Assembly: GCA_934121885.1 (NCBI GenBank)
Contig: CAKOVH010000001.1
Coordinates: forward strand, 143,825 to 207,824
Source: an uncultured Clostridia bacterium
GTDB lineage: Bacteria; Bacillota; Clostridia; TANB77; CAG-508
Length of the DNA: 64,000 bases
Reading direction: 5' to 3'
Shown here: positions 1-18,421 of the stretch, piece by piece
Numbering within the stretch: position 1 is the stretch's first letter
How the letters are laid out: the number at the start of each line of letters is the position of its first letter
Translations under genes and position numbers: made by a program
Notes under the pieces: model-generated
Databases searched by the model: none
Seen by the model: the letters and a program-made list of their open reading frames with translations, nothing else
What the model was told of the DNA's origin: nothing

Positions 1-1397
1 GGTCCATATGAACCTGTTCCTGTTAATGAGTTATTAAGTATTTTCCATGAAGACATATTATTTAATTGGTCTTGTACAAGTTTACTAACTTCATCTTGGC
101 TGATATTTGTTTGGAAACTTCCTTCCATAGAATTTAATATACTTGTATATTTAGTTAATATTGTTTTACTGTCTAATACTTTATTAATAATTGCTTCAAT
201 TACTTGTTGTTGATTTCTAACTCTTTGATTATCGCCATTTGCAAATGAGTATCTTTCTCTACTATATGCTAGAGCCTGATTTCCATTTAATCTATTGTAA
301 CCCTTATGATAAGTATATCCCGTTGCCGTTGAAAAGTCATAATCTGAATATACACTAACTCCACCTAAAGTATCTACTAATTTGATTAGTGTTGTAAAAT
401 TGACTCTTACATAATAATTAATATCTATATCTAACAAATCTTCTACGGTTGTTACGGTTTCGCTAACTCCATAAATACCAGAATGTGTTAATTTGTCTTT
501 AGCCTTTTTACTATGAAGTGTTACATAATAATCTCTTGGAATAGAAGTAAGTAAAACTTCATGAGTTTTTGTATTAACAGTAGCAAGTATATTAGCATCA
601 CTTCTTGCAACATTATTAATACTTCCTGTTGTGTCTATTCCACTTATATATACATTAAATATTCCATTATTTATTGTTTGTCTAGAATCTGTCGTTTCTA
701 TTTTAGTACTTACTTTTACATCATGATTTACAATATATATTATTTTTGTATTGTCCTTAAATTCCTTTATTTCTTCAGAAAGCATTTCATATTGTGTTAA
801 TGAAACAAAAACAGTATCTATATCTTTATCAAGTAACTTTTTGCCTAAATCTGTTAAACTTTCTCCACTTTTTAAGGTTACCGTTACCTTATCAGTCAAA
901 TCTTTTTTTACACTATCATCTATTTGGAACAAGTAAATATCTTTTCCTTTAACATCCTCTATTTTACTATAGCTATTGTCTTTTCTAGCTATAATATAAT
1001 ATTGTTCTGTTTCAGTTACTTCTCTAAAAACTTTTCCTAAAAAGTTACTTGTAGCAAGTAAATAATTAGTTGCGTATATATATATACCAGATACGAAAAG
1101 AACTGCTATTATACATATAATATTTATCTTTAAAGATTTACGATTTTTTAAAATTCCTCTTATCATTAATATCGTAAATACAATTTCAGCAATTGTAAAT
1201 ATTACGGTATATGAAGTAGGAAGCATATTTACTTTTCTAACAGCAATATAGAAGATAATTGTAATAACTACATATACAAAAGCTAATAACTTAAGTATAC
1301 CATCTAGCTTTGTATTTCTTCTTTTACTATTTTTTTGATTTGTTACTCCCTTTTTCCCCCTTTTAGGTTCTTCTTTCATTCTTTTCCCTTGACTCAT
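1..1397 (-). CDS. LytR-CpsA-Psr (LCP) family cell-envelope glycopolymer ligase. N-terminus at 1397; C-terminus truncated by the window edge.
   Basis: Reverse translation from ~1397 gives MSQGKRMKEEPKRGKK..., then a TM segment, then an LCP-like body. It overlaps the stop of the upstream epimerase by 1 nt. It is absent from the ORF track only because it runs off the window. Confidence 0.65.
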   Translation of the reverse strand, partial: MSQGKRMKEEPKRGKKGVTNQKNSKRRNTKLDGILKLLAFVYVVITIIFYIAVRKVNMLPTSYTVIFTIAEIVFTILMIRGILKNRKSLKINIICIIAVLFVSGIYIYATNYLLATSNFLGKVFREVTETEQYYIIARKDNSYSKIEDVKGKDIYLFQIDDSVKKDLTDKVTVTLKSGESLTDLGKKLLDKDIDTVFVSLTQYEMLSEEIKEFKDNTKIIYIVNHDVKVSTKIETTDSRQTINNGIFNVYISGIDTTGSINNVARSDANILATVNTKTHEVLLTSIPRDYYVTLHSKKAKDKLTHSGIYGVSETVTTVEDLLDIDINYYVRVNFTTLIKLVDTLGGVSVYSDYDFSTATGYTYHKGYNRLNGNQALAYSRERYSFANGDNQRVRNQQQVIEAIINKVLDSKTILTKYTSILNSMEGSFQTNISQDEVSKLVQDQLNNMSSWKILNNSLTGTGSYG

Positions 1398-2491
1398 TAG
1401 TTAACCTCCGTAAAATTTTTAATTAACTTTGCAATTATATTAGCTGCATTTCCATCTCCATAATAATGTATTTTTTCATTATCAACTATTTTCGCATTAC
1501 AAATTTTATTATAAAGATCATTTTTTTCAGGAGTAGATAATATATTATAACCTTTATTCAAAGTTTCAACCCACTCTGTTTGATTTCTTATTGTAATACA
1601 AGGTGTATCTAATATATAACATTCTTTTTGTAATCCACCAGAATCTGTTACAACTTTAGTTGCATTTTTGGTTAAATATAGCATCGTTAGATAATCAACT
1701 GGCTCAACAAAATATATATTAGTATATTTATTTTGTTGATATAATTCATCAACCATTTTCTTTATTCTTGGATGAACTGGAAAAATTACAAGTTTATCCA
1801 AGCTTTCAAATACTCCTAATATATTCCTTAAATTTTTATCATCCATTGTATTTTCTGCTCTATGGATTGTTGTTAAATACCAACTATCTATATTCCTTCT
1901 TTCGTAAATAGGTACTAATTGTATATCATCTTTGTTAATCTTTTTATCTGCCATCTTAGAATAATATAAAACAGAATCACACATAACATCACCAGTTAAA
2001 TATACATTTTCTGTTATTCCCTCATTCTTTAGATTTTCAACTGCTGTTTTAGTTGGGCAAATCAGGATTTTCGAGATATGATCAGTTAGTATTCTGTTTT
2101 GTTCTTCAGGCATCTTCATATTAAAAGATCTTAGTCCCGCTTCAACATGTATTATAGGTATTAGCAATTTTGATGCAGCAATTGCACCAGCCAATGTAGA
2201 GTTTGTATCACCATATACCATAACATAATCTGGTTTTTCTTTCAATAATACTTCTTCAATTTTTATAATCATTTCTCCTGTTTGTTTTCCATGAGTTCCA
2301 GATCCTATCCCTAAATTATATTTTGGCTTTGGTATTTCTAATTGTTCAAAAAATATTTCTGACATATTTTTATCATAATGTTGTCCTGTATGTACCAGTA
2401 TTTCTTCAAAATTATCTTTTAAGGCTTTTGAAACCATAGCAGCTTTTATAAACTGTGGTCTTGCACCTATTATTGTTATAATTTTTTTCAT
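1397..2491 (-). CDS. wecB: UDP-N-acetylglucosamine 2-epimerase (non-hydrolysing, WecB/WbpI-like)
   Basis: MKKIITIIGARPQFIKAAMVSKAL...HTGQHYD...DSGGLQKE motifs. The internal ATG has a GAGGAG RBS. The track ORF's 18-codon N-extension was rejected. Confidence 0.85.
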   Translation of the reverse strand: MKKIITIIGARPQFIKAAMVSKALKDNFEEILVHTGQHYDKNMSEIFFEQLEIPKPKYNLGIGSGTHGKQTGEMIIKIEEVLLKEKPDYVMVYGDTNSTLAGAIAASKLLIPIIHVEAGLRSFNMKMPEEQNRILTDHISKILICPTKTAVENLKNEGITENVYLTGDVMCDSVLYYSKMADKKINKDDIQLVPIYERRNIDSWYLTTIHRAENTMDDKNLRNILGVFESLDKLVIFPVHPRIKKMVDELYQQNKYTNIYFVEPVDYLTMLYLTKNATKVVTDSGGLQKECYILDTPCITIRNQTEWVETLNKGYNILSTPEKNDLYNKICNAKIVDNEKIHYYGDGNAANIIAKLIKNFTEVN

Positions 2492-2502
2492 ATTTTTTCT
2501 CC

Positions 2503-3615
2503 TCATTTTAAATCTTTTACAACTTTTCTTACCCTTGCATTCCACGTGTTTTCATCAATAATACTATTAAATTTTTTCTGTATTTCATATATTTCTGATT
2601 TATTATCTCTTATCATTTTAAGCATCTTTTCTATATCGTTTATTTCATAGTTTGTTGTCCACCCAATATGATTTTCTTCAACAAATTTTCCTGCTGCAGT
2701 ATTCTTAGTTGCAATAATTGGTTTTTTATTTTGAATGTATTCAAACAGTTTTACTGGCATAGCTATATTCATATATTCATATCTGTTAAATATAAGACTA
2801 CATACATCAGCTTCTTTATAATATTTTTCCAACTCTTGTCCACTTGCATGTACAATATGTATATTTTCATTTATATACTTAATATACTTACTTTTTATAT
2901 TATTCCATTCTGGTTCCCTACAGCAAACTGTCAATCGTACATTTTTCATTTTACAAACTACTGCAAATAGTTTTTCAAAATTATAAATATGCTCAGATAT
3001 TCCTCCTACATAAAATATATTTAAAATATTATTTTTTTCTTTTTCATTAAATGTTATATTTTTGTTATCGCATCCAGGTGGTAATATATCAATGTTGTAT
3101 TTTTTACATATTACATTTTTTTTCGGTAAATATTTTTTCATTTCTTTAGTTGGTATATATAATACATTTAGGTATTTTCTATATTTGAGCAAATCATATT
3201 TATATAATGGAATTGATACTATTCTTTTTATAAAAGAAACATTTTTTCTATATACATCAAATTTCCAATGTATATCTCTATAGAATAAACCTATTTTTAT
3301 TCCATTTTTTTTACAATATTTAAAAAAAGAAAAATCAAGCATTGGATGTAATGGCAAATGATTTTTTTCTGTTAACAAAGTGGGCATTGTGCTACTTTCT
3401 GAATACAAAAAATCATATTTTATTCCATTTTTTATATTTTGTTTTATTTTTTTTATTTGCTCTTTTCTTTCTTTTGCATATCCCATTACAACATCAACAT
3501 CATACCCTATCTCTTTAAATGCATTTATCATTTTTAAAGGTCTAATATTTGAGCCGGATTTTCTATTAACATCTATATAATTTGGGACATGAAATATACA
3601 TTTTTTATTAGCCAT
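2503..3615 (-). CDS. Glycosyltransferase (putative, family unclear)
   Basis: 370-aa ORF inside the polysaccharide operon with an HVPNYID...SGSNIRP N-terminus. It overlaps wzx by 8 nt (coupled). Confidence 0.5.
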   Translation of the reverse strand: MANKKCIFHVPNYIDVNRKSGSNIRPLKMINAFKEIGYDVDVVMGYAKERKEQIKKIKQNIKNGIKYDFLYSESSTMPTLLTEKNHLPLHPMLDFSFFKYCKKNGIKIGLFYRDIHWKFDVYRKNVSFIKRIVSIPLYKYDLLKYRKYLNVLYIPTKEMKKYLPKKNVICKKYNIDILPPGCDNKNITFNEKEKNNILNIFYVGGISEHIYNFEKLFAVVCKMKNVRLTVCCREPEWNNIKSKYIKYINENIHIVHASGQELEKYYKEADVCSLIFNRYEYMNIAMPVKLFEYIQNKKPIIATKNTAAGKFVEENHIGWTTNYEINDIEKMLKMIRDNKSEIYEIQKKFNSIIDENTWNARVRKVVKDLK

Positions 3616-4900
3616 TATTGTTCTTTCCCTTTCTTAAAATTCCCACAGTCTGATTTATTATTATCTTTAAATCATTTTTATTTATTTTAAATATTTCTTT
3701 TATATTAAATCCTTTTTTCTTTAAAACTATTATATAAATTGCTCCATATACAAAATATGATATTGTTGAGGCTAGTGCTGCTCCATTAATACCAAATCTC
3801 GGAATCAAAATCATATTAAATAATACATTGACTGCAAGAACTATCGCTGATACTTTTAAATGCATACCAGGATTTCCATTCGTATAAAAATACGCAGGTG
3901 TAACTTTTCCTATAGACGCAAATATAATTCCTATCAATAGTATTACCATTGAGACTCCCGCTGCTGAATACTCTTGCCCATATAAAACTGTTACAAGTGG
4001 TTTACATATACATCCGACTATACATATCATTAATGTCAAATAAAATGCTAACTTAATTGTCTGAATAGTAATTTCATCTCGTTCTTCTTTTTTACAGGTA
4101 TATAATCGTCCTTCAAATGCAGAAGTAATAGATTCTGGAAAAACAAAAGCCAATTCTGCTAAATTTACAGATATTGCATATATTCCTAATTCTACTGTAC
4201 CTAGCATTTGTTTTACCATAAATTGATCTACTCTATAATTTAAGTATATACATAATGCTGCTAAATACAATGGTATTCCAAATTTTAACTCATCTTTTAT
4301 GATATTTATGTTAAATTCAAAATGGTAATTTAATTTTAACCCCTTTAACAATAACGCTATTTTTAATATTTCTAATGATGCATATATTAAAGAAAGCGTA
4401 ACAATATTTAAGCAATTTATAAAATACAAAATAACTATCAATATACCTTTTAATATGTTTATTGCAATTAAATATTTATTATACACATATATATTTTCAT
4501 CTGAAACATATACTGTAATAAAAAAATTATTGAATAATAAATTTATTGCATATAATAGCCATATTAAAGGTAATATGTATATATTATTAGAAAATATCTG
4601 TTTACTAAAGATTATCGCTATGATTATATATATACATCCCAAAAATATTAAAGTTGATATATTTGTATTTATTACATTTTTCTTTTCATACTGACTTTTC
4701 TTTATAAAATAACTATTTGAACTTGTTATTCCTAAATGTCCATATGATGCTATTATTCCAAAAATTAAAAGATAATACGAAAATTGCCCTTGATTTTCCG
4801 TTCCTAATCCTCTAGCAATCAATATACTTGTAATAAAACCAGTTCCTATAGATAATATATGTAATATTAAATTACTAACAATATTTTTCTTAAATTTCAT
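3608..4900 (-). CDS. wzx: Oligosaccharide flippase (Wzx / MOP superfamily polysaccharide biosynthesis protein)
   Basis: 430 aa and about 12 TM helices. The N-terminus MKFKKNIVSNLILHILSIGTGFITSILIARGLG is typical of Wzx. Confidence 0.75.
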   Translation of the reverse strand: MKFKKNIVSNLILHILSIGTGFITSILIARGLGTENQGQFSYYLLIFGIIASYGHLGITSSNSYFIKKSQYEKKNVINTNISTLIFLGCIYIIIAIIFSKQIFSNNIYILPLIWLLYAINLLFNNFFITVYVSDENIYVYNKYLIAINILKGILIVILYFINCLNIVTLSLIYASLEILKIALLLKGLKLNYHFEFNINIIKDELKFGIPLYLAALCIYLNYRVDQFMVKQMLGTVELGIYAISVNLAELAFVFPESITSAFEGRLYTCKKEERDEITIQTIKLAFYLTLMICIVGCICKPLVTVLYGQEYSAAGVSMVILLIGIIFASIGKVTPAYFYTNGNPGMHLKVSAIVLAVNVLFNMILIPRFGINGAALASTISYFVYGAIYIIVLKKKGFNIKEIFKINKNDLKIIINQTVGILRKGKNNNG

Positions 4901-6632
4901 CTTTTTTATTTTCCTTATTAAAATATTTTTCTAAAAAAGATAGTAATGAGATAACTTCTATTTTTTCTATTGCACTACCCTCTTTATATAGCTTTTCAAT
5001 ATCATTTTTTAACTCATTATCATTATCTAAAAGCTTTTTGTTTTTTTGATAATATGTATCCAGCTTTTCTCTTAAATCCTTATTAGTTTCATACCAATAT
5101 TGCATTGGGTTCATATTACTTTTTGGGTCAGTTTTCAATTTTAATTTATTTTTTATGATATTTAATATCATATTTATGGTATATTTTTTTCTTTTTATTG
5201 TAACCTTAACAGAGTTACTCTTCGGGATTTTAACACCATTATGAGCATATTTCATAGCATCTTTATGATATTTTTCTACCCATTTATAATATATATAATG
5301 TCCAAATCTATATTTTAATGGCAATGAAAAACAAAATTCCATAAACTCAATATTCATAAATGGAGACATAGCTTCGGTATAATTTTGGAATGTTGTTGAA
5401 TATCCTAATACTGCTCCATTAAAAGCTCTATTATAGAGCATTCCAACTTCATAATTATCATACTCTTTTATTGTTATCATTTCACTTAATTTATTAATTA
5501 AGGTTTTTGAAAAAGCTCCATCGCCTATCTGATAATTCTTCTTATCATAACTTTTATAAAAAGTTGCTAAAACAACATCTCCAATTACACCTGTATGAAC
5601 AATTCCCATATTCTCTGTATTAATCAATTTCATATAATCATACAATTGTGAAGGCCATGCATAATATATGATACCATCTGTAATATCAGTTGATTTTTGT
5701 ATATTATATAGAGCAAGACCATTATCTAAATTTTTAAATATCCAATGATTATGTAATTCTGATGCTATTTTACTTGGAACAATCTGATCAAGTTGTCCTG
5801 TTTGTGAATATGTTATATTATATATATCTTTTTTATAGATTTTTCTCAGCATATAGTTTGTCATTCTTGAGTCTAACCCTGCACTTAAAGGTGCAAAATT
5901 ATCATATCCATATTCTTCGTTTTTTGAAACTTGTAACATCATAGCTTCTTGAAATTTCTTTTCAATCTTCTCTAATATTTCATCTTCAGACATAGTTACA
6001 TCTTTATCAATATTAGTTTTTAATTTGTAATACTCAATTTCTTCTATTTTATTATTTTCTATTTTTATATAATGACCTGGTAATAATTTTTTTATTTCTT
6101 TTATAAGAGTCAAATTATCATACATATATCCATATGTAAGTAAGCAGTATACACCTTTTTTATCCAAATTATATTTTATATCATTGTACTTCATAAATTT
6201 GATAATGTGTTTTATTTCAGATGCAAATATTATTTCACTTTTTACATTATAAAAGAAAATTGTCTTGTCTCCTGTTTGATTTGTGAATATTATAGTTTTA
6301 TTTTTTATTTTATCTTCGAAAAATCCACAAAAATTTCCTCGAAATTCACTAAAAAATTTTTCGCCATTCTTTTTGTACATTTCTATTATCAAATCTTGCA
6401 TTTCATTTTTGTTAAACTTTTCTTTTAATTTTGATAAATTTAAAATTACACCTTCTACTAATACTGTATAATTTTCATCTTTATACATTATCTTATCGTT
6501 TTCAAATTTTTTTATGCTACTCATTTCTAAATGCCAAGTATTTATATTCTCGTTTCTGTAAATTCTATTTTCTTCTTCCATAATTTTTTCTGGCATATTA
6601 TTATATATATTAGTTCCAAAGATTCCTGGCAT
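4890..6632 (-). CDS. Asparagine synthetase-like amidotransferase (WbpG/WbpS-like). The N-terminal nucleophile Cys is replaced by Pro.
   Basis: N-terminus MPGIFG (normally MCGI..). The PP-loop is LSAGLDSR. 580 aa. A strong AAGGAG RBS fixes the start. Confidence 0.8.
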   Translation of the reverse strand: MPGIFGTNIYNNMPEKIMEEENRIYRNENINTWHLEMSSIKKFENDKIMYKDENYTVLVEGVILNLSKLKEKFNKNEMQDLIIEMYKKNGEKFFSEFRGNFCGFFEDKIKNKTIIFTNQTGDKTIFFYNVKSEIIFASEIKHIIKFMKYNDIKYNLDKKGVYCLLTYGYMYDNLTLIKEIKKLLPGHYIKIENNKIEEIEYYKLKTNIDKDVTMSEDEILEKIEKKFQEAMMLQVSKNEEYGYDNFAPLSAGLDSRMTNYMLRKIYKKDIYNITYSQTGQLDQIVPSKIASELHNHWIFKNLDNGLALYNIQKSTDITDGIIYYAWPSQLYDYMKLINTENMGIVHTGVIGDVVLATFYKSYDKKNYQIGDGAFSKTLINKLSEMITIKEYDNYEVGMLYNRAFNGAVLGYSTTFQNYTEAMSPFMNIEFMEFCFSLPLKYRFGHYIYYKWVEKYHKDAMKYAHNGVKIPKSNSVKVTIKRKKYTINMILNIIKNKLKLKTDPKSNMNPMQYWYETNKDLREKLDTYYQKNKKLLDNDNELKNDIEKLYKEGSAIEKIEVISLLSFLEKYFNKENKKDEI

Positions 6633-11755: not shown

Positions 11756-12334
11756 TTAAACTTGTTTTACTATATTGTTTTCTATTTTATATGTTTTTCC
11801 ACATTTAGGACATTCAAAACTATTATTTTGAAAATTCATTTTTTCTGAACACTCACACACATAATACTTAATTCTAGCAGGATTTCCCATTACTAGTGCA
11901 TAATCTGGTACATCCTTTGTTACAACTGCTCCTGCAGCCACAAATGCATATTTTCCAATATTATGACCACATACAATCGTCGCATTAGCTCCTATAGAAG
12001 CTCCTTTACCTATAATCGTTTTTCTATATTCGTCTTTTCTTGATATAAAGCTTCTTGGATTTATAACATTTGTAAATACACAAGATGGTCCCAAAAATAC
12101 ATCGTCTTCACAAACAACTCCGGTATAAACAGAAACATTGTTTTGAATTTTTACACCATTTCCAAGTACAACATCGGGAGATATTACAACATTTTGACCA
12201 ATATTACAATTTTCTCCTATCTTGCAATTAGACATAATGTGTGAAAAGTGCCATATTTTAGTTCCTTTACCTATTTCACATGGACTATCAACATAACTTG
12301 ATTCATGTATGAAATAGTTTTCACAATTACTCAT
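11756..12334 (-). CDS. Hexapeptide-repeat N-acetyltransferase (WbpD-like) with a C-terminal CxxC...CxxC zinc ribbon
   Basis: Left-handed beta-helix repeats (IGENCNIGQNVVISPDVVLGNGVKIQNNV...). The start is MSNCENYF with a GGAAAGGAAG RBS. The upstream MERKCII extension was rejected. Confidence 0.75.
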   Translation of the reverse strand: MSNCENYFIHESSYVDSPCEIGKGTKIWHFSHIMSNCKIGENCNIGQNVVISPDVVLGNGVKIQNNVSVYTGVVCEDDVFLGPSCVFTNVINPRSFISRKDEYRKTIIGKGASIGANATIVCGHNIGKYAFVAAGAVVTKDVPDYALVMGNPARIKYYVCECSEKMNFQNNSFECPKCGKTYKIENNIVKQV

Positions 12335-12367
12335 TATTATACACTTCCTTTCCATATATCTATTTAT

Positions 12368-13507
12368 CTATTTTCTGTTTTCCTTTATGATTGAACATAT
12401 TTTTTCACTTATTTCTTCTATTTGCTTTTCATTCATATATGGATGCATTGGTAAACTCAAAACACATTTGCTTAATCTTTCTGACACTTTTAAATCTTCT
12501 AGATTAAAATCATAGTCTTTATACACAATTTGTTTATGAAGTGGTATTGGATAATATACCATTGTTGGTATTCCACTTTCCTTTAATTTTTCTTGTAACA
12601 TATTTCTTTCTTCTTCATCTTCTAAAATTAGAGTATACTGTGCCCAACTGCTAACATATCCGTCTGGTACATATGGCGTCTTTACTATTTTATCTAATTT
12701 TTCTGTATACATTTTTGCAAATTTATTTCTATCTTCTAATTCATAACTTTCAAAAGCAGCTAACTTTGGCAATAATATAGCAGCCTGGATTGTATCTAAT
12801 CTCGAATTAAGACCTACTCTTATATTTTCATATTTGTATGAACCTTTTCCATGTACCCTAACTGATAATATTTTTTTATATATTTCTTCATCATCTGTAA
12901 ATATTGCTCCACCATCTCCATAACATCCTAATGGCTTAGCTGGGAAGAAAGATGTTGTTGATATATCTCCAAAGGAACATGCCTTTCTTTTACCTATTGA
13001 ACCTCCAAATCCTTGAGCTGCATCCTCCACAACTTTAAGCCCGTACTTTTCTGCAATCCTTAGAATTTCATTAAAATTTGCCGTTTGTCCAAACAAATCA
13101 ACTGCTGTTATTAATTTAGGTGTTAGTTTTCCCTCTTGTATAACCTTTTTTATTGTGTTTTCTAATTTTTCAGGATTCATATTAAAAGTTCTTTCATCTA
13201 CATCAACAAATATTGGTGTAGCACCTTCTAATGATACAACCTCAGCTGTTGAATAAAATGTAAAGGTTGGCACAAATACAGCATCTCCAGCTTTTAAATC
13301 AAACATTTTCATTGCAATCGTCAATGCATCTGTTCCATTAGCACATGTAGCACAATACTTTCTCCCAACATATTTAGCTAATTTTTCTTCTAATGTTTTT
13401 ACTTCTTCTCCCATAATGTAATTAGCATTGTTTAATACATTTTTTATATTTTCATCAATTTGATCTTTTAATTTAGCATATTGTGCTTTTAAATCTATAA
13501 ATTCCAT
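12368..13507 (-). CDS. DegT/DnrJ/EryC1/StrS family PLP aminotransferase (WbpE-like, 3-oxo-sugar aminotransferase)
   Basis: MEFIDLKAQY... start with an AGGAG RBS, GTDAL motif and conserved Lys region. It overlaps the upstream gene's stop. Confidence 0.85.
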   Translation of the reverse strand: MEFIDLKAQYAKLKDQIDENIKNVLNNANYIMGEEVKTLEEKLAKYVGRKYCATCANGTDALTIAMKMFDLKAGDAVFVPTFTFYSTAEVVSLEGATPIFVDVDERTFNMNPEKLENTIKKVIQEGKLTPKLITAVDLFGQTANFNEILRIAEKYGLKVVEDAAQGFGGSIGKRKACSFGDISTTSFFPAKPLGCYGDGGAIFTDDEEIYKKILSVRVHGKGSYKYENIRVGLNSRLDTIQAAILLPKLAAFESYELEDRNKFAKMYTEKLDKIVKTPYVPDGYVSSWAQYTLILEDEEERNMLQEKLKESGIPTMVYYPIPLHKQIVYKDYDFNLEDLKVSERLSKCVLSLPMHPYMNEKQIEEISEKICSIIKENRK

Positions 13508-13523
13508 AATACTTTTCTCCTTA

Positions 13524-14600
13524 CTAATTAAATCTTCCTGTAAAATCCATTGTAGAGCATTTATCAAGTGGTAATTTTACTGGTCTTCCATCGGCAGCTG
13601 ACTTATATATAGCTAAGACCATCTCTAAAGCTCTCTTTCCTGCTTCAGCATCAACTAATGGTTTTGTATGATTTTGAATAGCCTCAATTACATTTTTATA
13701 TAATGGAGTATGACCAAATCCATAAACATTCTTTGGCATTTCACTATTTTTTTCTTTTATTTCTTCTGAACTTTCATTTTGATTTTCAAAGTTCCATTCC
13801 TCTATTATATTAACAGACTTTCCTCCTGCTTTAACAGTTCCTTTTTGACCAAATAGATACAATGTTTCTTCTAAATTTTTAGGATATATATCAGTTGTTC
13901 CTTCTATAATTCCGTAAGAGCCATTTTTAAACTTTACAATAGCCATTCCTAAATCTTCTGCTTGTATATAATCATGTTTTAAATTATCCGTATATGCACA
14001 AACCTCTGTCACTTCATCCCCCATCATCCATCTAAGCAAATCTATGTTATGAATACATTGATTCATTAGGGCTCCACCGTCTTGTTCCCAAGTACCTCTC
14101 CAAGGTGCTTGAGTATAATAATCCTTTCCTCTATTCCATCTAATATGTGCTGTTCCATATAGCATTTTACCAAAATCACCATTTTCAACAGCTTGTCTTA
14201 TTTTTTGTATTGACTTATTAAATCTATTTTGATGATTAGCACATACCACTAATCCTTTTTCCTTTGCCTTTGCAATAATTTTATCAGCATCTTCTAGCGA
14301 TAATGCAATTGGCTTTTCGATAATAACATTGCATCCTTTTTCTAGGCAATCAAGTGCTATTTTAGCGTGTTTACCACTTTCTGTTGCAATTGCTACCAAT
14401 TCAGGTCTTTCATTTTCTATCATTTCATTATAATCAGTATACTTTTTATAATTCTTGTCATTCATTCCCAACTTTTCTAATAAATTATCCATATTTTGAG
14501 GTATAATATCACAAATCCCAACTACCTCCAATTTATTATTTACTGCAGCTTCTAAGTGATTTGGTGATATTCTTCCACATCCAATTAACGCATATTTCAT
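13524..14600 (-). CDS. Gfo/Idh/MocA family oxidoreductase (WbpB-like UDP-GlcNAcA 3-dehydrogenase)
   Basis: MKYALIGCGRIS NAD-binding N-terminus. 358 aa. Context between the transferase and aminotransferase. Confidence 0.85.
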   Translation of the reverse strand: MKYALIGCGRISPNHLEAAVNNKLEVVGICDIIPQNMDNLLEKLGMNDKNYKKYTDYNEMIENERPELVAIATESGKHAKIALDCLEKGCNVIIEKPIALSLEDADKIIAKAKEKGLVVCANHQNRFNKSIQKIRQAVENGDFGKMLYGTAHIRWNRGKDYYTQAPWRGTWEQDGGALMNQCIHNIDLLRWMMGDEVTEVCAYTDNLKHDYIQAEDLGMAIVKFKNGSYGIIEGTTDIYPKNLEETLYLFGQKGTVKAGGKSVNIIEEWNFENQNESSEEIKEKNSEMPKNVYGFGHTPLYKNVIEAIQNHTKPLVDAEAGKRALEMVLAIYKSAADGRPVKLPLDKCSTMDFTGRFN

Positions 14601-14620
14601 TTTTTCATTTCCTCCTTATT

Positions 14621-15307
14621 TTAAAAAATTGTTTTAAAACATACTTTTATATCTTCTATAATATTAAATTTCTTTATGTACTCTAAATTCCATTTCATCT
14701 TTTCAGGTAATATTCTTTGTACATAAATATCATCAACTTTTTCGCCTTTATTTAAATATTGGCTTATCATTTCATCTTCATCTTTGTACTCAATACTGGC
14801 TCTTGATGAAATTCCTGCTGGCATAAGCAAAGTTGCTTTCATTTCGTCTGTGTATTTATTTACATACTTTTCTACTTCTGGTCTTGTTCCTACAAATGAC
14901 ATTTCACCTTTTAAAACATTTATGAGTTGTGGGAATTCATCTAATCTGCATTTACGTATTTTACTTCCAACTCTTGTTATTCTTGGATCTTCGCCAATAG
15001 TAACTAAAGCTCCCTTTTTATCTGCATCTTGTACCATTGTTCTAAATTTAAATATTCTAAATTTTTTACCATATCTAGTTATTCTCTCTTGCCTATAAAA
15101 TACTGGACCTTTTGAATCAATTTTTATTGCTATTGCTAAAATAAGCATAATAGGAGATAAGATAATTAATAAAATTAATGATGCTATAATATCAAACAAT
15201 CTCTTTACTATAAGGCTTATTTTTTTATGTGAAAGAATATTATAATATTCTTTCACTTTTTCATTTTTCATATTTTCTGGCAAGTTTTCATATTTTTTAA
15301 ATATCAT
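14621..15307 (-). CDS. Initiating sugar phosphotransferase (PglC/WcaJ C-terminal-type bacterial sugar transferase)
   Basis: KRLFDIIASL...GPVFYRQERITRYGKKFRIFKFRTM...DEFPQLINVLKGEMSFVGTRP. Its ATGA start overlaps the upstream stop. Confidence 0.85.
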   Translation of the reverse strand: MIFKKYENLPENMKNEKVKEYYNILSHKKISLIVKRLFDIIASLILLIILSPIMLILAIAIKIDSKGPVFYRQERITRYGKKFRIFKFRTMVQDADKKGALVTIGEDPRITRVGSKIRKCRLDEFPQLINVLKGEMSFVGTRPEVEKYVNKYTDEMKATLLMPAGISSRASIEYKDEDEMISQYLNKGEKVDDIYVQRILPEKMKWNLEYIKKFNIIEDIKVCFKTIF

Positions 15308-16521
15308 TTTGTATATTCTCCAACAATCTCTTTAAAGTTTTCTATAATATATTCAACTTGTTCATCAGTTAATTTACTATATAGTGGTAAAGTAATTTCA
15401 TTTCTGTAGAAATCGTATGCATTAGGATAATTTGCAATGTCAAATCCTAACTTTTTGTAAGCTGTTAGCATTGGTAATGGCTTATAATGTACATTACATG
15501 CTATTCCTCTTTCTGCCATTTTTATAATAATTTCATTTCTTTGTTTTTCATCAATACCTTTTATTCTTGTAATATATAAATGTCCTGATGATCTATGATT
15601 TTCATCTTTATGGTTTAGTACAGTTATTGGTAAATCTTTAAAAGCCTCATTATATTTTGATATAATTTGATGTCTTCTTTCTACTAATTTTGGATATCTT
15701 GCAATTTGTGCAAGTCCTATTCCTGCCATTATGTCAGTCATATTACATTTGTAATATGTATCAACGATATCGTATTCCCATGCACCTAGTGCATTTTTAT
15801 GTAGTGCATCTTTTGTTTGTCCATGTAATGATAATAATTGATATTGTTTGTAGATTGCTTCATTATCTAAACCTTCTTTATTTTTCCAAACTGCAGCGCC
15901 ACCTTCTCCTGTTGTTAGATTTTTAACTGCGTGAAATGAAAATGTTGTAAAGTCAGCAAATTCTCCTGACATCTTTCCATCTTTTTTAGCACCAAAACCA
16001 TGTGCACTATCTGCAACTACAATTATTCTGTTATATATTTTTTGTATATCATTATTTGCTTTAAATAATTTTTTCTTTTCCTCTACAATTTTAAATATTT
16101 TGTCATAATCACACAAAATTCCAGCCACATCTACAGGTATAATTACTTTTGTTTTTTCTGTAATTGCATTTGCTAATTTTTCATAATCCATTTCAAAAGA
16201 ATCTTTTTGTGTATCTACTAATACAATTTTTGCTCCTACATGAGCTATAGGACTTGCTGAAGCTGTATATGTATAACTTGAAGTTATTACTTCATCCCCT
16301 TCACCTATTCCTAATATTCTTAATGTTAATTCTAATGCAGCTGTTGCAGAATTTAAGCATACTGCCTTTTCTGTATTGCATAATTGTGCTATTTCTTTTT
16401 CGAATTGCTTTGTTTTTGGACCTGTTGTAATCCATCCAGATTTTAAAGCATCAATCACATTATTAATTTCTTCTTCACCAATATCTGGTGGAGAAAATGG
16501 TATATTCATTTTCACACTCAT
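15304..16521 (-). CDS. DegT/DnrJ/EryC1/StrS family aminotransferase (PglE-like, UDP-4-keto-6-deoxy-sugar 4-aminotransferase)
   Basis: MSVKMNIPFSPPDIGEEEI... start with a GGAGG RBS. The GTG-start extension in the track was rejected. Confidence 0.85.
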   Translation of the reverse strand: MSVKMNIPFSPPDIGEEEINNVIDALKSGWITTGPKTKQFEKEIAQLCNTEKAVCLNSATAALELTLRILGIGEGDEVITSSYTYTASASPIAHVGAKIVLVDTQKDSFEMDYEKLANAITEKTKVIIPVDVAGILCDYDKIFKIVEEKKKLFKANNDIQKIYNRIIVVADSAHGFGAKKDGKMSGEFADFTTFSFHAVKNLTTGEGGAAVWKNKEGLDNEAIYKQYQLLSLHGQTKDALHKNALGAWEYDIVDTYYKCNMTDIMAGIGLAQIARYPKLVERRHQIISKYNEAFKDLPITVLNHKDENHRSSGHLYITRIKGIDEKQRNEIIIKMAERGIACNVHYKPLPMLTAYKKLGFDIANYPNAYDFYRNEITLPLYSKLTDEQVEYIIENFKEIVGEYTK

Positions 16522-16537
16522 TTTTTCCTCCACATTA

Positions 16538-18421
16538 TTAATCATTTTTTTTAATATTATTAACCTCTTCTGGATCTTTAAATGTTGGTACAACACTTTT
16601 TAGTGTTTCTTTAACATGTTCTCTAGAATAATTTTCATCATATTCTAATGTTTCAAGCTTATCTAATTTTTCTTGTAGTTCTTCCATTTCCAAATGCATT
16701 GGTTCTGTAACAAATATTTTTTCATGTTTTGTTGCAGTTAATCCTTCCTCTGACATTAATATTTCTTCATATAATTTTTCGCCAGGTCTTAATCCTGTTA
16801 TTTGAATTGGTATATCTACATTTGGTTCATATCCTAAAAGCTTAATTACATTTACTGCTAAATCATATATTTTAACAGGTTCTCCCATATCTAGTACGAA
16901 TATTTCTCCACCTTTTGCATATGTAACTGCTTGTAATATTAATTGCACAGCTTCAGGAATTGTCATAAAGAATCTTGTAATATCTTTGTGTGTTACTGTT
17001 ACTGGTCCACCTTTTGCTATTTGCTTTTTAAATAGTGGAATAACAGACCCGTTACTTCCAAGTACATTTCCAAATCTTACTGCTGCATATTCTGTTTTGC
17101 TTAATTTGTTCTTGGCTTGAACTATCATTTCGCAAACTCTTTTTGTCGCCCCCATTATATTTGTTGGGTTAACAGCTTTATCTGTAGAAATTAGTATAAA
17201 CTTTTCTACCTCAAATTCATCTGCACAATTTACTACATTATATGTTCCAAATACATTATTTTTTATTGCCTCTAATGGGTTATTTTCCATTAATGGAACA
17301 TGTTTATGTGCTGCTGCATGGAAAACTATTTCTGGCTTATATTCTTTAAATACTTCTTCTAATCTATCTTTATCTCTAACACTTGCAACAACAGCATCTA
17401 TACTTGCTTTTGGATATGCTGATTTTAGTTCTACTTCTATATCGTATAAGTTATTTTCATAAATATCTAATATTACTAATCTTTTTGGTTCGTATTTTAT
17501 AATTTGTCTGCATAATTCTGAACCTATTGAACCACCGCCGCCAGTAACAAGCACTACTTTATTTTTTATTAATGAATGAATATTTTTGTTATCTAAATGT
17601 ATCGCGTCTCTTCCTAGTAAATCTTCTATTTCTATATCTCTTAGACTATTTATTGCACCTTGTTTATCTATTACTTCTTCTGTAGTTGGAAGTACTCTTG
17701 TTTTTACACCTGTTTCTTGGCATATTTCAATAATTTTCTTTCTTGATGCTGGGTCTATTTTATTTATTGCAAAGAAAATAATATCAACATCATTTTCTGA
17801 TACTACTTTTGGAATATCATATCTTGTTCCTAAAACTTTAACACCAAGAATATAGTGATTTAGTTTACTCATATCATCATCTATAATTCCAACTATATTA
17901 TATTTATTTCTCATTGAATTTTTTACAGCAATTACAATTTCTCTTGCACCCATTCCTGCACCGATAATTAATAAATTGCTTATTTTTTTCTTTTCTACTG
18001 TTTGCTTATCTTTCTCTTTTTTATCCATTCTTCTGCTTAATATAGATCTTCCTGCTAATCTATACATTACAAATGTTCCTGCAATAAGCACACCTGATAA
18101 AATATTTAATTTTGGATTAATATATTTTAAATGAAATATTAAATCAAGACCAGAAAGAATAGTAACTGCAAAGAATGCACTAATAATATAATTTACATAG
18201 TCTTTTCCAACTTCGTATCTCATCATATTTTGATACATATGAAAGATATTTAGGAATATTTCATATACAGCAATTGCAAGTACGATTTCCTTTATAAAAT
18301 CTGTTACATTATCTATATTAATATCCAAGAAAATCATTGATATTAAGTAAATTCCTATTATTATACAAATATCTATTAATATAAGAAATATGTTTCTATT
18401 TCTCTTTACAATTTCAATCAT
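16538..18421 (-). CDS. Membrane-bound UDP-GlcNAc 4,6-dehydratase (CapD/PglF/WbpM family polysaccharide biosynthesis protein). First gene of the operon.
   Basis: Four N-terminal TM helices, then the LVTGGGGSIGSEL Rossmann motif and VFHAAAHKHVP. 627 aa. Confidence 0.9.
   Translation of the reverse strand: MIEIVKRNRNIFLILIDICIIIGIYLISMIFLDINIDNVTDFIKEIVLAIAVYEIFLNIFHMYQNMMRYEVGKDYVNYIISAFFAVTILSGLDLIFHLKYINPKLNILSGVLIAGTFVMYRLAGRSILSRRMDKKEKDKQTVEKKKISNLLIIGAGMGAREIVIAVKNSMRNKYNIVGIIDDDMSKLNHYILGVKVLGTRYDIPKVVSENDVDIIFFAINKIDPASRKKIIEICQETGVKTRVLPTTEEVIDKQGAINSLRDIEIEDLLGRDAIHLDNKNIHSLIKNKVVLVTGGGGSIGSELCRQIIKYEPKRLVILDIYENNLYDIEVELKSAYPKASIDAVVASVRDKDRLEEVFKEYKPEIVFHAAAHKHVPLMENNPLEAIKNNVFGTYNVVNCADEFEVEKFILISTDKAVNPTNIMGATKRVCEMIVQAKNKLSKTEYAAVRFGNVLGSNGSVIPLFKKQIAKGGPVTVTHKDITRFFMTIPEAVQLILQAVTYAKGGEIFVLDMGEPVKIYDLAVNVIKLLGYEPNVDIPIQITGLRPGEKLYEEILMSEEGLTATKHEKIFVTEPMHLEMEELQEKLDKLETLEYDENYSREHVKETLKSVVPTFKDPEEVNNIKKND

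What the first reader, a model, noticed from the sequence alone, without database searches (positions are those of the whole stretch)
1..18421. 18-kb Wzx/Wzy-type glycan locus predicted to make a polymer with 2,3-diacetamido-2,3-dideoxy-uronic acid (possibly amidated) and a 4-amino-4,6-dideoxy-HexNAc reducing-end sugar, finished by an LCP ligase
Transcription order on the minus strand is: CapD/PglF dehydratase, PglE-like aminotransferase, PglC-like phosphoglycosyltransferase, WbpB-like oxidoreductase, WbpE-like aminotransferase, WbpD-like acetyltransferase, WbpA-like dehydrogenase, two GT4, Wzy, AsnB-like amidotransferase, Wzx, GT, WecB/WbpI-like 2-epimerase, LCP.

This is the complete Pseudomonas B-band-like UDP-ManNAc(3NAc)A pathway (WbpA/B/E/D/I plus a WbpG-like amidotransferase) transplanted into a Gram-positive. 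It is coupled to LCP-mediated attachment to peptidoglycan, that is, a secondary cell-wall glycopolymer rather than a classical capsule. Several genes are translationally coupled (ATGA overlaps).
Basis: partly seen in the sequence, partly recalled or inferred. Interest (0 to 1): 0.5.

Follow-up and report, generated by a model that had tools for sequence, protein, structure and literature searches.

The report
Cell-wall sugar polymer operon, gut Clostridia
This is a real, intact 15-gene operon from an uncultured human-gut Clostridia bacterium. It should build and wall-anchor a repeat-unit polysaccharide containing rare di-N-acetylated amino-uronic acids and a free-amine sugar; it is a new example of a known kind of system, with one uncharacterised enzyme in it.

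Summary

**Wbp/Wlb block.** The five steps to UDP-ManNAc3NAcA are well supported.
- 3-dehydrogenase: best solved match 3q2k/3q2i, 1e-74.
- Aminotransferase: WbpE, 1e-100.
- Acetyltransferase: 3mqg, 8e-58.
- 2-epimerase: best match is the Thermus UDP-GlcNAc3NAcA 2-epimerase (2e-111), and it carries all three published specificity residues (Ala17, Tyr93, Trp307).

**Initiation trio.**
- The dehydratase is PglF-like (1e-100).
- The aminotransferase is 61% identical, without gaps, to pneumococcal Spr1654, so the first sugar is probably AATGal with a free amine.

- The "WbpG-like amidotransferase" is neither WbpG-type nor WbpS-type. It belongs to an uncharacterised AsnB-fold family in which 0 of 115 members keep the catalytic Cys.
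- The Wbp cassette is widespread in Clostridia, so it was not "transplanted".
- An LCP gene does not separate a wall polymer from a capsule.
- Only two of the gene overlaps are ATGA.

Verdict: a new member of a known kind, of moderate-to-low interest. The main hooks are a possible zwitterionic polymer in gut Clostridia and the Cys-less AsnB-like enzyme.

The parts
16538..18421 (-). Membrane-anchored UDP-GlcNAc 4,6-dehydratase (CapD/PglF/WbpM type), 627 aa; first gene of the operon
   Evidence: Best solved match is 5bju, C. jejuni WlaL (= PglF; the equation is from my own knowledge), E 9e-101, 341 bits, residues 261-617. Pfam Polysacc_synt_2 plus CoA_binding_3. NCBIfam PseB and FnlA hits are below cut-off.
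15304..16521 (-). UDP-4-keto-6-deoxy-GlcNAc 4-aminotransferase, 405 aa; likely makes UDP-AATGal
   Evidence: Best solved match is 6EWJ, S. pneumoniae Spr1654: E 4e-164, 549 bits, 241/395 identical with no gaps. 6EWJ is identified as Spr1654 in PMC5936713.
14621..15307 (-). Small monotopic phosphoglycosyltransferase (Bac_transf), 228 aa; initiates on undecaprenyl phosphate; ATGA overlap with the aminotransferase
   Evidence: TIGR03025 C-terminal domain, 230 bits. PDB WbaP catalytic domain and PglC, 87-98 bits. 4-nt overlap.
13524..14600 (-). UDP-GlcNAcA 3-dehydrogenase (WlbA type; does the WbpB step), 358 aa
   Evidence: Best solved matches are 3q2k and 3q2i, E 2e-74 and 4e-73. That these entries are WlbA is my own knowledge. 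Co-located with the next three genes in about 40 genomes.
12368..13507 (-). UDP-3-keto-GlcNAcA 3-aminotransferase (WbpE/WlbC type), 379 aa
   Evidence: PDB 'Aminotransferase WbpE' 3nyu/3nu7, E about 1e-100, 340 bits. QdtB scores only 245 bits.
11756..12334 (-). UDP-GlcNAc3NA 3-N-acetyltransferase (WbpD/WlbB type), 192 aa; the only acetyltransferase in the locus
   Evidence: PDB 3mqg/3mqh, E 8e-58, 199 bits. QdtC scores only 67 bits.
10410..11732 (-). UDP-N-acetylhexosamine 6-dehydrogenase (WbpA step, inferred), 440 aa
   Evidence: TIGR03026, 437 bits (cut-off 190); substrate-specific models are all below cut-off. Best solved relatives are UDP-ManNAc dehydrogenases, about 240 bits, which is not decisive. 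A 90%-identical homologue is named 'UDP-N-acetyl-D-glucosamine dehydrogenase' by JGI. It sits next to the three genes above in most related loci, most of which show no 2-epimerase nearby.
9152..10399 (-). GT4 glycosyltransferase a, 415 aa
   Evidence: Pfam Glycos_transf_1 and Glyco_trans_1_4. Weak WcaI and TuaH hits.
8026..9141 (-). GT4 glycosyltransferase b, 371 aa; ATGA overlap with Wzy
   Evidence: Pfam Glyco_trans_4_2 plus Glycos_transf_1. EpsE, BshA and TuaC-like hits are below cut-off. Overlap shown.
6635..8029 (-). Wzy-type repeat-unit polymerase, 464 aa, polytopic membrane protein
   Evidence: TIGR04370, 60.3 bits (cut-off 40). Its 90%-identity cluster has only 3 members.
4890..6632 (-). 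AsnB-fold ATP-dependent amide-forming enzyme lacking the glutaminase Cys, 580 aa; substrate unknown. Best guess: it converts the C-6 carboxyl of the di-N-acetyl-hexuronic acid into an amide
   Evidence: The N-terminus is MPGIFG. The PP-loop SxGxDSR is invariant across the family. 0 of 115 family members have Cys at position 2. The AF2 model has pLDDT 94.5, and the top folds are beta-lactam synthetase, AsnB, TsnB9 and CarA. TIGR01536 scores 84 bits (cut-off 267), TIGR03108 scores 72 bits (cut-off 817), and there is no TIGR03573 hit.
3608..4900 (-). Wzx-type flippase, 430 aa
   Evidence: Pfam Polysacc_synt, Polysacc_synt_3 and MurJ. NCBIfam MurJ and Wzx_EPS hits are weak.
2503..3615 (-). Third glycosyltransferase (GT-B, Gtf3_C-like), 370 aa
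   Evidence: Pfam PF26337 Gtf3_C and Glyco_trans_1_4 (weak). Weak TuaH-like hit.
1397..2491 (-). UDP-GlcNAc3NAcA 2-epimerase (WbpI/WlbD type), 364 aa
   Evidence: Best solved match is 8sxv/8sxy/8sy9, E 2e-111, 376 bits, against 112-151 bits for Firmicute UDP-GlcNAc 2-epimerases. It has the specificity residues Ala17, Tyr93 and Trp307. A 76%-identical homologue is named 'UDP-GlcNAc3NAcA epimerase' by JGI.
1..1397 (-). LCP (LytR-CpsA-Psr) glycopolymer-to-peptidoglycan transferase; 465 of 498 aa lie inside the window; overlaps the epimerase stop by 1 nt
   Evidence: TIGR00350 domain, 117 bits (cut-off 62). The Cps2A-type model scores 299 bits, below its equivalog cut-off of 650. Full length and downstream VanZ gene seen in L004.
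18458..18486 (-). Candidate sigma-70-type promoter of the operon
   Evidence: TTGATA-17-TATAAT, 11 of 12 matches; joint top-scoring site in 1-19500. Position is suggestive only, because promoter-like sites are at chance frequency in this AT-rich DNA.

Best explanation
This is a single operon for a Wzx/Wzy-dependent heteropolysaccharide that ends up covalently attached to peptidoglycan. The host is an uncultured, low-GC human-gut Clostridia bacterium whose closest genomes are 'Clostridium sp. CAG:508' and similar metagenome-assembled genomes.

**Proposed steps**
1. The PglF-like dehydratase and the Spr1654-like aminotransferase convert UDP-GlcNAc into a UDP-2-acetamido-4-amino-2,4,6-trideoxyhexose, most likely AATGal. 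Its 4-amine stays free, because no second N-acetyltransferase is encoded.
2. The small PGT transfers this sugar-1-phosphate to undecaprenyl phosphate.
3. In parallel, a WbpA-like 6-dehydrogenase, a WlbA-type 3-dehydrogenase, a WbpE-type aminotransferase and a WlbB-type acetyltransferase make UDP-GlcNAc3NAcA. The WbpI-type epimerase converts some or all of it to UDP-ManNAc3NAcA.
4. Three GT-B glycosyltransferases extend the lipid-linked sugar, probably to a tetrasaccharide. At least one residue should be a di-N-acetyl-hexuronic acid; the other sugars are unknown.
5. The Cys-less AsnB-like enzyme uses ATP to adenylate a carboxyl group and form an amide. The most likely target is C-6 of the uronic acid. 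The nitrogen donor would be free ammonia or an amine or amino acid, not glutamine.
6. Wzx flips the unit, Wzy polymerises it, and the LCP enzyme transfers the polymer from undecaprenyl diphosphate to peptidoglycan.

**Shown versus inferred.** Shown here are the gene content, order and intactness, the family-level or best-homologue identity of each enzyme, and the specificity residues of the epimerase. Inferred are the stereochemistry of the 4-amino sugar, the substrate of the 6-dehydrogenase, the repeat-unit size and composition, the substrate and amine donor of the AsnB-like enzyme, and the final attachment site.
For: - Gene order and tight packing.
- PglF-like dehydratase, 9e-101.
- Aminotransferase 61% identical, without gaps, to Spr1654, the teichoic-acid AATGal aminotransferase (PMC5936713).
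- PGT domain.
- WlbA-, WbpE- and WlbB-type best matches at 1e-74, 1e-100 and 8e-58.
- Epimerase best match to the biochemically proven Thermus UDP-GlcNAc3NAcA 2-epimerase at 2e-111. It has Ala17, Tyr93 and Trp307 at the three positions that the structural paper says distinguish this substrate from UDP-GlcNAc.
- The dehydrogenase-WlbA-WbpE-WlbB cassette is co-located in about 40 Clostridia genomes.
- Wzy is above its curated cut-off, and the LCP domain is above its cut-off.
- AsnB fold with an intact PP-loop.
- An asnB-type gene next to wbp genes makes the uronamide in P. gingivalis (PMC7468200).
- The closest homologues of the AsnB-like gene (42-66% identity: L077, L079, L133, L071) sit in loci that also carry Wbp-cassette genes.
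- A fully collinear sister locus at 60-92% identity argues that the 15 genes work together.
Against: - Nothing here is biochemical, and the organism is uncultured.
- The 6-dehydrogenase's nearest solved relatives are UDP-ManNAc dehydrogenases, and no substrate-specific model reaches its cut-off.
- The AsnB-like family is not generally tied to uronic-acid genes. Only 13 of 45 homologue loci of at least 10 kb show a sugar 6-dehydrogenase within reach, whereas 33 of 45 show a DegT aminotransferase and 14 of 45 a GT56 transferase. Its substrate could therefore be an amino sugar.
- No chain-length regulator or tyrosine kinase (Wzz/CpsC/CpsD) is seen in the window or in 10 kb beyond it. This is unusual for Gram-positive Wzy capsules.
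- Spr1654's own product stereochemistry is inferred from the teichoic-acid structure and was not shown enzymatically.
Confidence: 0.7

Rival explanations
1. The product is a classical Gram-positive capsule, a thick serotype-variable outer layer attached through a CpsA-type LCP as in pneumococci. On this reading it is not a short secondary cell-wall polymer that serves wall or S-layer functions.
For: - The LCP's best family match is the capsule-attaching CpsA/Cps2A type, 299 bits over nearly the whole model.
- The central genes (Wzy, Wzx, AsnB-like, GTs) are low in GC (23.5-26.6%) and are replaced in related species, while the sugar-precursor genes are kept. This is the pattern of serotype loci.
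Against: - No CpsB/CpsC/CpsD (phosphatase, co-polymerase, tyrosine kinase) homologues appear in the operon, the rest of the 64-kb window, or 10 kb downstream.
- The initiating module is closest to the pneumococcal teichoic-acid one.
- The distinction is partly semantic and cannot be settled from sequence.
Confidence: 0.3
2. The AsnB-like enzyme does not amidate the uronic acid. Instead it N-acylates the free 4-amino group of the first sugar, or another amino sugar, with an ATP-activated carboxylic or amino acid.
For: - Across 45 homologue loci, the most frequent neighbour is a DegT sugar aminotransferase (33/45). GT56 (4-amino-6-deoxyhexose transferase family) is present in 14/45, against 0/47 in a comparison set.
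- Only 13/45 have a sugar 6-dehydrogenase.
- The locus leaves one sugar amine unsubstituted.
Against: - AsnB-superfamily enzymes adenylate the carboxyl substrate. The known glycan examples (WbpS, WbqG, PGN_1234) act on uronic acids.
- The nearest relatives of this particular protein co-occur with Wbp uronic-acid genes.
- DegT genes are common in glycan loci generally (37/47 in the comparison set).
Confidence: 0.2
3. The epimerase is an ordinary UDP-GlcNAc 2-epimerase (MnaA/WecB) paired with the LCP gene, as mnaA sits beside an LCP gene in Bacillus subtilis. The polymer would then contain GlcNAc3NAcA and ManNAc, or ManNAcA, rather than ManNAc3NAcA.
For: - The protein passes the generic WecB model TIGR00236 (292 bits, cut-off 210).
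- It lies next to the LCP gene, far from the Wbp cassette.
- Most related Wbp cassettes have no such epimerase nearby.
- The second-best solved match is an archaeal enzyme named UDP-GlcNAc 2-epimerase (316 bits).
Against: - It scores 376 bits against the proven UDP-GlcNAc3NAcA epimerase, against 112-151 bits for Firmicute MnaA enzymes.
- All three substrate-discriminating positions carry the UDP-GlcNAc3NAcA-type residues: Ala instead of Leu/Met, Tyr instead of His/Gln, Trp instead of Arg.
- 120 of 121 close homologues share Tyr and Trp.
Confidence: 0.07
4. The glycan is transferred to a protein (S-layer, flagellin or pilin glycosylation) rather than to peptidoglycan.
For: Di-N-acetyl-hexuronic acids occur in archaeal N-glycans and in the Bacteroidetes protein-linking sugar.
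Against: - No oligosaccharyltransferase (PglB, PglL or WsaB type) is present in the operon.
- An LCP transferase is translationally linked to the last sugar gene.
- A Wzy polymerase is present.
Confidence: 0.04

Closest known systems
Wbp/Wlb pathway for UDP-ManNAc3NAcA (P. aeruginosa O5 B-band WbpA/B/E/D/I; Bordetella WlbA-D; Thermus thermophilus HB27)
   Same: All five enzymatic steps have a counterpart here. Four have the characterised enzyme as best solved match. The epimerase shares the substrate-specificity residues.
   Different: - The 3-dehydrogenase is of the WlbA structural type; P. aeruginosa WbpB is not among the matches.
- The glycan is destined for peptidoglycan through an LCP enzyme, not for lipid A-core.
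- There is no WbpG-type acetamidino-forming enzyme.
- The epimerase gene is separated from the cassette by seven genes.
Secondary cell-wall polymer of Geobacillus stearothermophilus wild-type strains (contains 2,3-diacetamido-2,3-dideoxymannuronic acid; anchors the S-layer)
   Same: A Gram-positive, peptidoglycan-bound, non-teichoic anionic polymer with the same rare uronic acid (PMC4232325).
   Different: No S-layer gene or SLH/CWB2 protein is seen in the window. This locus adds a 4-amino sugar and an AsnB-like modifier.
Pneumococcal teichoic acid precursor pathway (Spr0092 dehydratase, Spr1654 aminotransferase, AATGal-1-P initiation, flippase, polymerase, LCP attachment)
   Same: - Membrane CapD-type dehydratase.
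- Aminotransferase 61% identical to Spr1654, including its two insertions, since the alignment is gap-free (PMC5936713).
- Adjacent small PGT, repeat-unit polymerisation, and LCP-mediated transfer to peptidoglycan.
   Different: No ribitol-phosphate or phosphocholine genes are present, so the polymer has no phosphodiester backbone. It resembles teichuronic acid rather than teichoic acid.
Zwitterionic capsular polysaccharides that start with AATGal (Bacteroides fragilis PSA; S. pneumoniae serotype 1)
   Same: A predicted free amine on the first sugar together with carboxylates in the same repeat unit, in a gut commensal. Genomic screens have already predicted PSA-like polymers in diverse gut bacteria (PMC13063421, PMC10167101).
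   Different: The acidic sugars here are di-N-acetyl-hexuronic acids, which may be amidated. Amidation would remove the negative charge. No immunological data exist.
WbpS/WbqG/PGN_1234 uronic-acid amidotransferases (AsnB-like, TIGR03108 family)
   Same: An AsnB-superfamily gene embedded among wbp, wzx and wzy genes. PGN_1234 turns the Wbp product into the uronamide (PMC7468200).
   Different: The protein here scores 72 bits against a cut-off of 817 for that family. It has no N-terminal Cys, and neither does any of its 115 relatives. It cannot be a glutamine-dependent amidotransferase of that type.
Bacillus subtilis teichuronic acid (tua) operon
   Same: A Wzx/Wzy-type anionic wall polymer with a uronic-acid dehydrogenase and GT4 enzymes. 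There are weak hits to TuaC, TuaD and TuaH.
   Different: All Tua hits are far below the equivalog cut-offs. The sugars differ, and no TuaF (Wzz-like) counterpart is present.

Membership tests
Wbp/Wlb UDP-ManNAc3NAcA pathway | UDP-GlcNAc 6-dehydrogenase (WbpA) | tested here: inconclusive
   It is a member of the nucleotide-sugar dehydrogenase subfamily (TIGR03026, 437 bits, cut-off 190). The TviB, WecC and archaeal UDP-ManNAc dehydrogenase models are all below cut-off. Its nearest solved relatives are UDP-ManNAc dehydrogenases. Gene linkage and a JGI name on a 90% homologue favour WbpA.
Wbp/Wlb UDP-ManNAc3NAcA pathway | UDP-GlcNAcA 3-dehydrogenase (WbpB/WlbA) | tested here: met
   Best solved matches are 3q2k and 3q2i, E 2e-74 and 4e-73 over the full length; the next hit is at 1e-29. 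That these entries are WlbA rests on my own knowledge of Thoden & Holden 2011.
Wbp/Wlb UDP-ManNAc3NAcA pathway | PLP-dependent 3-aminotransferase (WbpE/WlbC) | tested here: met
   PDB 'Aminotransferase WbpE', E 1e-100, 340 bits, full length.
Wbp/Wlb UDP-ManNAc3NAcA pathway | Left-handed beta-helix 3-N-acetyltransferase (WbpD/WlbB) | tested here: met
   3mqg/3mqh, E 8e-58. WlbB is cited as the solved WbpD-step structure in PMC10622841.
Wbp/Wlb UDP-ManNAc3NAcA pathway | UDP-GlcNAc3NAcA 2-epimerase with Ala18, Tyr96 and Trp307 (Thermus numbering) in place of Leu/Met, His/Gln and Arg | tested here: met
   Best match 8sxv, 2e-111. The window protein has K16-A17, Y93-G94-D95 and R302...E306-W307.
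Wzx/Wzy-dependent polysaccharide assembly | Polyprenyl-phosphate phosphoglycosyltransferase, Wzx flippase and Wzy polymerase in one locus | tested here: met
   - PGT: TIGR03025 domain, 230 bits.
- Wzx: Pfam Polysacc_synt.
- Wzy: TIGR04370, 60 bits, above cut-off 40.
Wzx/Wzy-dependent polysaccharide assembly | Polysaccharide co-polymerase / chain-length regulator (Wzz, CpsC/CpsD) | tested here: not met
   No such domain appears among the Pfam hits for any gene in the operon, in the flanks covered by L001, L004, L067 and L072, or in the other window ORFs scanned. It could be encoded elsewhere in the genome.
AATGal-initiating module (pneumococcal TA Spr0092/Spr1654/PGT; B. fragilis WcfR/WcfS) | Retaining UDP-GlcNAc 4,6-dehydratase, a 4-aminotransferase orthologous to Spr1654, an adjacent small PGT, and no 4-N-acetyltransferase | tested here: met
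   - Dehydratase: 5bju, 9e-101.
- Aminotransferase: 61% identity, gap-free, to Spr1654.
- PGT overlaps the aminotransferase by 4 nt.
- The only acetyltransferase in the operon is WlbB-type.
- The galacto configuration of the product is not testable from sequence.
WbpG/WbuX N-acetyl-sugar amidotransferase (acetamidino formation; TIGR03573) | PP-loop protein matching TIGR03573, usually with HisH/HisF-like partners | tested here: not met
   No TIGR03573 hit at E <= 1e-5 for the 580-aa protein. No HisH/HisF-like genes are present in the locus.
WbpS/WbqG uronic-acid amidotransferase (TIGR03108) and class II glutamine amidotransferases in general | N-terminal catalytic Cys (residue 2 before Met removal) and a full-length match to the family model | tested here: not met
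   The sequence starts MPGIFG. 0 of 115 family members have Cys2. TIGR03108 scores 72 bits against a cut-off of 817, covering residues 59-277 only.
AsnB superfamily (asparagine synthetase B / beta-lactam synthetase fold) | Two-domain Ntn-like plus PP-loop ATP-pyrophosphatase fold with an SGGxDS-type motif | tested here: met
   The AF2 model has pLDDT 94.5. Foldseek top hits are 1m1z, 1ct9, 7ylz, 6gq3 and 1q15, at E about 1e-16 to 4e-18 and TM 0.55-0.68. S250-x-G252-x-D254-S255-R256 is invariant or nearly so.
LCP (LytR-CpsA-Psr) glycopolymer transferases | LCP catalytic domain | tested here: met
   TIGR00350, 117 bits (cut-off 62). Pfam LytR_cpsA_psr on the full-length 498-aa protein. The equivalog models (CpsA, TagU, LytR) are all below cut-off.
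Streptococcal-type Wzy capsule locus (cpsA-B-C-D + ...) | CpsB phosphatase, CpsC co-polymerase and CpsD tyrosine kinase next to CpsA | tested here: not met
   None was found (see the co-polymerase row). The LCP lies at the 3' end of the operon, not the 5' end.

The most novel reading that the evidence does not exclude
The 580-aa protein would represent an uncharacterised, widespread clade of AsnB-fold enzymes that has lost glutamine hydrolysis. The clade spans Clostridia, Bacilli, Bacteroidota, Thermotogae and methanogens. On this reading it works as a glycan amide ligase, joining an amine or amino acid, rather than glutamine-derived ammonia, to the C-6 carboxyl of N-acetyl-hexosaminuronic acids. 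That would be the bacterial counterpart of the threonine-amidated ManNAc3NAmA of Methanococcus N-glycans. Combined with the free-amine AATGal, it would give a prevalent uncultured gut Clostridia lineage a charge-tuned, possibly zwitterionic, wall polysaccharide.
Probability: 0.2. Interest if true: 0.6.

Novelty: new member of a known kind. Interest (0 to 1): 0.33.

Why it matters
The locus gives a concrete, testable prediction for the surface chemistry of a common but uncultured human-gut Clostridia group.

- **Predicted polymer.** It should be peptidoglycan-anchored and combine a free-amine sugar (AATGal-like) with di-N-acetyl-hexuronic acids. That is the kind of zwitterionic motif behind the immune-modulating polysaccharide A of Bacteroides fragilis and the pneumococcal serotype 1 capsule.
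- **Variable centre.** The variable part of the locus would be a serotype and phage-receptor determinant.
- **Tractable enzyme family.** The Cys-less AsnB-like proteins sit in glycan loci and their chemistry is unknown.

None of this overturns current understanding. Every module has a well-studied relative.

Tried and rejected
1. **Organism name.** Exact-sequence look-ups found the proteins only in unnamed metagenome contigs and one unnamed NCBI assembly. The species-representative scan gave at best 89% identity to the 3-dehydrogenase, so the organism is placed only approximately, near 'Clostridium sp. CAG:508' and Hadza gut genomes.
2. **Other variants of the locus in the same species.** I looked up the exact galE and radical-SAM flank proteins. 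Every contig carried the same arrangement, so within-species variability is untested. Variability was shown only between related species.
3. **Methanococcus AglU (MMP1084).** From memory, this is the factor needed for threonine attachment to the mannuronic acid, and I wanted to know whether it is an AsnB-like protein. The papers are not held, so the lead stays untested.
4. **Sequence search of the AsnB-like protein against solved structures.** It gave only one marginal hit (7ylz, E 4e-4). A fold search was needed instead.
5. **Legionaminic/pseudaminic acid or Qui3NAc readings of the middle block.** Rejected. PseC and LegC models are below cut-off. QdtB and QdtC score far lower than WbpE and WlbB. 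No NeuB/NeuA, RmlA/B or QdtA-type genes are present.
6. **Promoter and terminator scans.** Both are at chance level in this AT-rich DNA (153 promoter-like sites against 161 expected; 3 terminator-like sites against 3.4). They add only the position of a top-scoring (11 of 12) site.
7. **PDB entries 3q2i/3q2k and 3mqg.** I could not confirm from held papers that these are WlbA and WlbB. That identification rests on my own knowledge plus the reference list seen.

Full report
**What is there.**
- The window has about 27% GC, and nearly all its genes are on the minus strand.
- Gaps between genes run from -11 to +33 nt, and each start codon follows a GGAG-like ribosome-binding site.
- A top-scoring promoter-like site (TTGATA-17-TATAAT) lies at 18486-18458, just upstream of the first gene. 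Promoter-like and terminator-like sites overall are at chance frequency in this AT-rich DNA.
- Only two junctions are ATGA overlaps (aminotransferase/PGT and GT4b/Wzy). Three more overlap by 11, 8 and 1 nt.
- The LCP gene is cut by the window edge. In identical metagenome contigs it is 498 aa and is followed by a VanZ-like gene. After that come housekeeping genes: a HAD phosphatase, a prepilin peptidase, an Xaa-Pro peptidase and EF-P.
- Upstream of the operon, a ParE-type toxin-antitoxin module on the opposite strand separates it from galE.

**The uronic-acid block.**
- The Gfo/Idh/MocA protein (13524-14600) matches 3q2k and 3q2i at 2e-74 and 4e-73; the next hit is at 1e-29. From my own knowledge, these two entries are the WlbA UDP-GlcNAcA 3-dehydrogenases of Bordetella and Chromobacterium.
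- The next protein matches 'Aminotransferase WbpE' at about 1e-100.
- The left-handed beta-helix protein matches 3mqg (WlbB) at 8e-58.
- Alternative 3-amino-sugar enzymes score far lower: QdtB 245 bits against 340, and QdtC 67 bits against 199. No pseudaminic or legionaminic acid synthase genes are present.
- The WecB-family protein (1397-2491) has the Thermus thermophilus UDP-GlcNAc3NAcA 2-epimerase as best solved match (2e-111, 376 bits). Bacillus, Staphylococcus and Listeria UDP-GlcNAc 2-epimerases score 112-151 bits.
- The structural paper on the Thermus enzyme states that three substitutions accommodate the bulkier substrate: Ala18 for Leu/Met, Tyr96 for His/Gln and Trp307 for Arg (PMC10622841). 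The window protein has Ala17, Tyr93 and Trp307, and its close homologues share them. I regard this membership test as passed.
- The weakest step is the 6-dehydrogenase. It is clearly a nucleotide-sugar dehydrogenase (TIGR03026, 437 bits), but no substrate-specific model reaches its cut-off, and its nearest solved relatives use UDP-ManNAc.
- The dehydrogenase's constant position beside the other three genes favours UDP-GlcNAc as its substrate. So do the fact that most such loci show no 2-epimerase within 10 kb and a JGI name on a 90%-identical homologue.

**The first sugar.**
- The 627-aa membrane protein matches C. jejuni PglF (5bju) at 9e-101.
- The following aminotransferase matches 6EWJ at 4e-164, with 241 of 395 residues identical and no gaps.
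- 6EWJ is Spr1654. This is the essential pneumococcal enzyme assigned to making AATGal, the first sugar of pneumococcal teichoic acid, from the product of the membrane dehydratase Spr0092 (PMC5936713).
- The small PGT overlaps the aminotransferase by 4 nt.
- The operon has no second N-acetyltransferase, so the 4-amine should stay free.
- "PglE/PglC-like" is therefore right in kind, but the closest relative is the Gram-positive AATGal module.

**Assembly and attachment.**
- Three GT-B glycosyltransferases, a Wzx, a Wzy (above the curated cut-off) and an LCP-domain protein (above the domain cut-off) complete the system.
- No Wzz/CpsC/CpsD-type gene is seen in the operon, in the rest of the window, or in the flanks read from identical contigs.
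- The LCP resembles the capsule-attaching CpsA type most closely. An LCP gene therefore does not distinguish a secondary wall polymer from a capsule. I leave this question open and treat it as partly semantic.

**The amidotransferase.**
- The 580-aa protein has no hit to the WbpG/WbuX family.
- It scores 72 bits against a cut-off of 817 for the WbpS/WbqG family (TIGR03108). PMC7468200 identifies that family as the uronic-acid amidotransferases.
- It begins MPGIFG.
- A search found 209 relatives of 33-66% identity in Clostridia, Bacilli, Bacteroidota, Thermotogae and a methanogen, mostly annotated as hypothetical. None of the 115 full-length members listed has the N-terminal Cys, while the PP-loop SxGxDSR is invariant.
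- A confident model (pLDDT 94.5) has the AsnB fold. Its top hit is beta-lactam synthetase, which from my own knowledge also lacks the Cys and does not use glutamine.
- I conclude that it is an ATP-dependent amide-forming enzyme that does not take nitrogen from glutamine.
- Its substrate is uncertain. The closest relatives (42-66% identity) sit in loci that carry Wbp-cassette genes. Across 45 homologue loci, however, only 13 show a sugar 6-dehydrogenase nearby, while 33 show a DegT aminotransferase and 14 a GT56 transferase.
- Amidation of the uronic acid is my preferred reading. Acylation of an amino sugar is a live rival.

**Host and distribution.**
- Identical proteins occur only in metagenome contigs and one unnamed assembly.
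- The nearest species-representative genomes are uncultured Clostridia from human gut and Clostridium sp. CAG:508, at 88-89% identity for the 3-dehydrogenase.
- About 40 of the 57 related loci carry the four-gene cassette. Close relatives share the frame CapD - aminotransferase - PGT - cassette - variable genes - (epimerase) - LCP.
- The central genes are lower in GC (23.5-26.6% against 29-32%) and belong to tiny 90%-identity clusters (1-3 members). The 3-dehydrogenase, by contrast, belongs to a cluster of 503 members. This is the mosaic pattern of serotype loci.
- One contig (L077) has a fully collinear sister locus at 60-92% identity.
- The cassette is therefore native to and widespread in Clostridia, not a recent import from Pseudomonas.

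**Comparison with what is known, and verdict.**
- ManNAc3NAcA is already documented in a Gram-positive secondary wall polymer, in Geobacillus stearothermophilus (PMC4232325). It is also known in Thermus and in archaeal N-glycans.
- AATGal-initiated, polymerase-dependent, LCP-attached polymers are known from pneumococci.
- PSA-like zwitterionic polymers have been predicted in many gut bacteria.
- The locus is thus a new member of a known kind: a well-formed, credible prediction, but not surprising.
- The residual interest lies in the combination of a free-amine sugar with (possibly amidated) diacetamido-uronic acids in an uncultured gut lineage, and in the uncharacterised Cys-less AsnB-like family.

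Noticed in passing
window 21715-22318 (-) and 21172-21696 (-): A full-length OLE (ornate large extremophilic) RNA, 369 bits against a gathering score of 50. It is followed directly by a 174-aa ORF with no family hit, in the position where the OLE-associated membrane protein gene usually lies. Two metagenome contigs (L074, L075) end right at this RNA.
   Followed up: partly
window 57727-57912 (-): 6S RNA (RF00013), 104 bits, full length.
   Followed up: no
window 18628-19371 (+): Three small plus-strand genes, including a ParE-family toxin (114 aa). They are wedged between galE and the glycan operon on the opposite strand. In a related species (L013), galE lies directly upstream of the locus, so the module looks like an insertion.
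   Followed up: partly
window about 36620-36990 (-), upstream of ORF 35306-36616: The formate-tetrahydrofolate ligase gene is split. The ORF covers only profile positions 119-556, and the N-terminal ~118 residues read in another frame just upstream. This is either a frameshift pseudogene or an assembly error.
   Followed up: partly
window 4890-6632 (-) and proteins P0001-P0120: A family of about 570-590-aa AsnB-fold proteins in glycan loci of bacteria and archaea. None has the catalytic Cys, and about half start MPG. Most are annotated 'hypothetical' or, wrongly, 'asparagine synthase (glutamine-hydrolysing)'.
   Followed up: yes
L077 129-16558 (contig ERZ827458 NODE-3, 520 kb): A fully collinear sister locus covering 14 of the 15 genes from the aminotransferase to the LCP (CapD would lie beyond the stretch fetched), at 45-92% protein identity. 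The flippase, polymerase, AsnB-like gene and two transferases are at only 60-66%.
   Followed up: partly
window 48115-50322 (-): A 735-aa protein with Big_2 and GLUG motifs, probably a surface protein. No SLH or CWB2 wall-binding domains were seen among the window ORFs scanned.
   Followed up: no
window 34520-34921 (-): A SleB-type cell-wall hydrolase (Hydrolase_2). This suggests a spore-forming lineage and is consistent with a monoderm Clostridia host.
   Followed up: no
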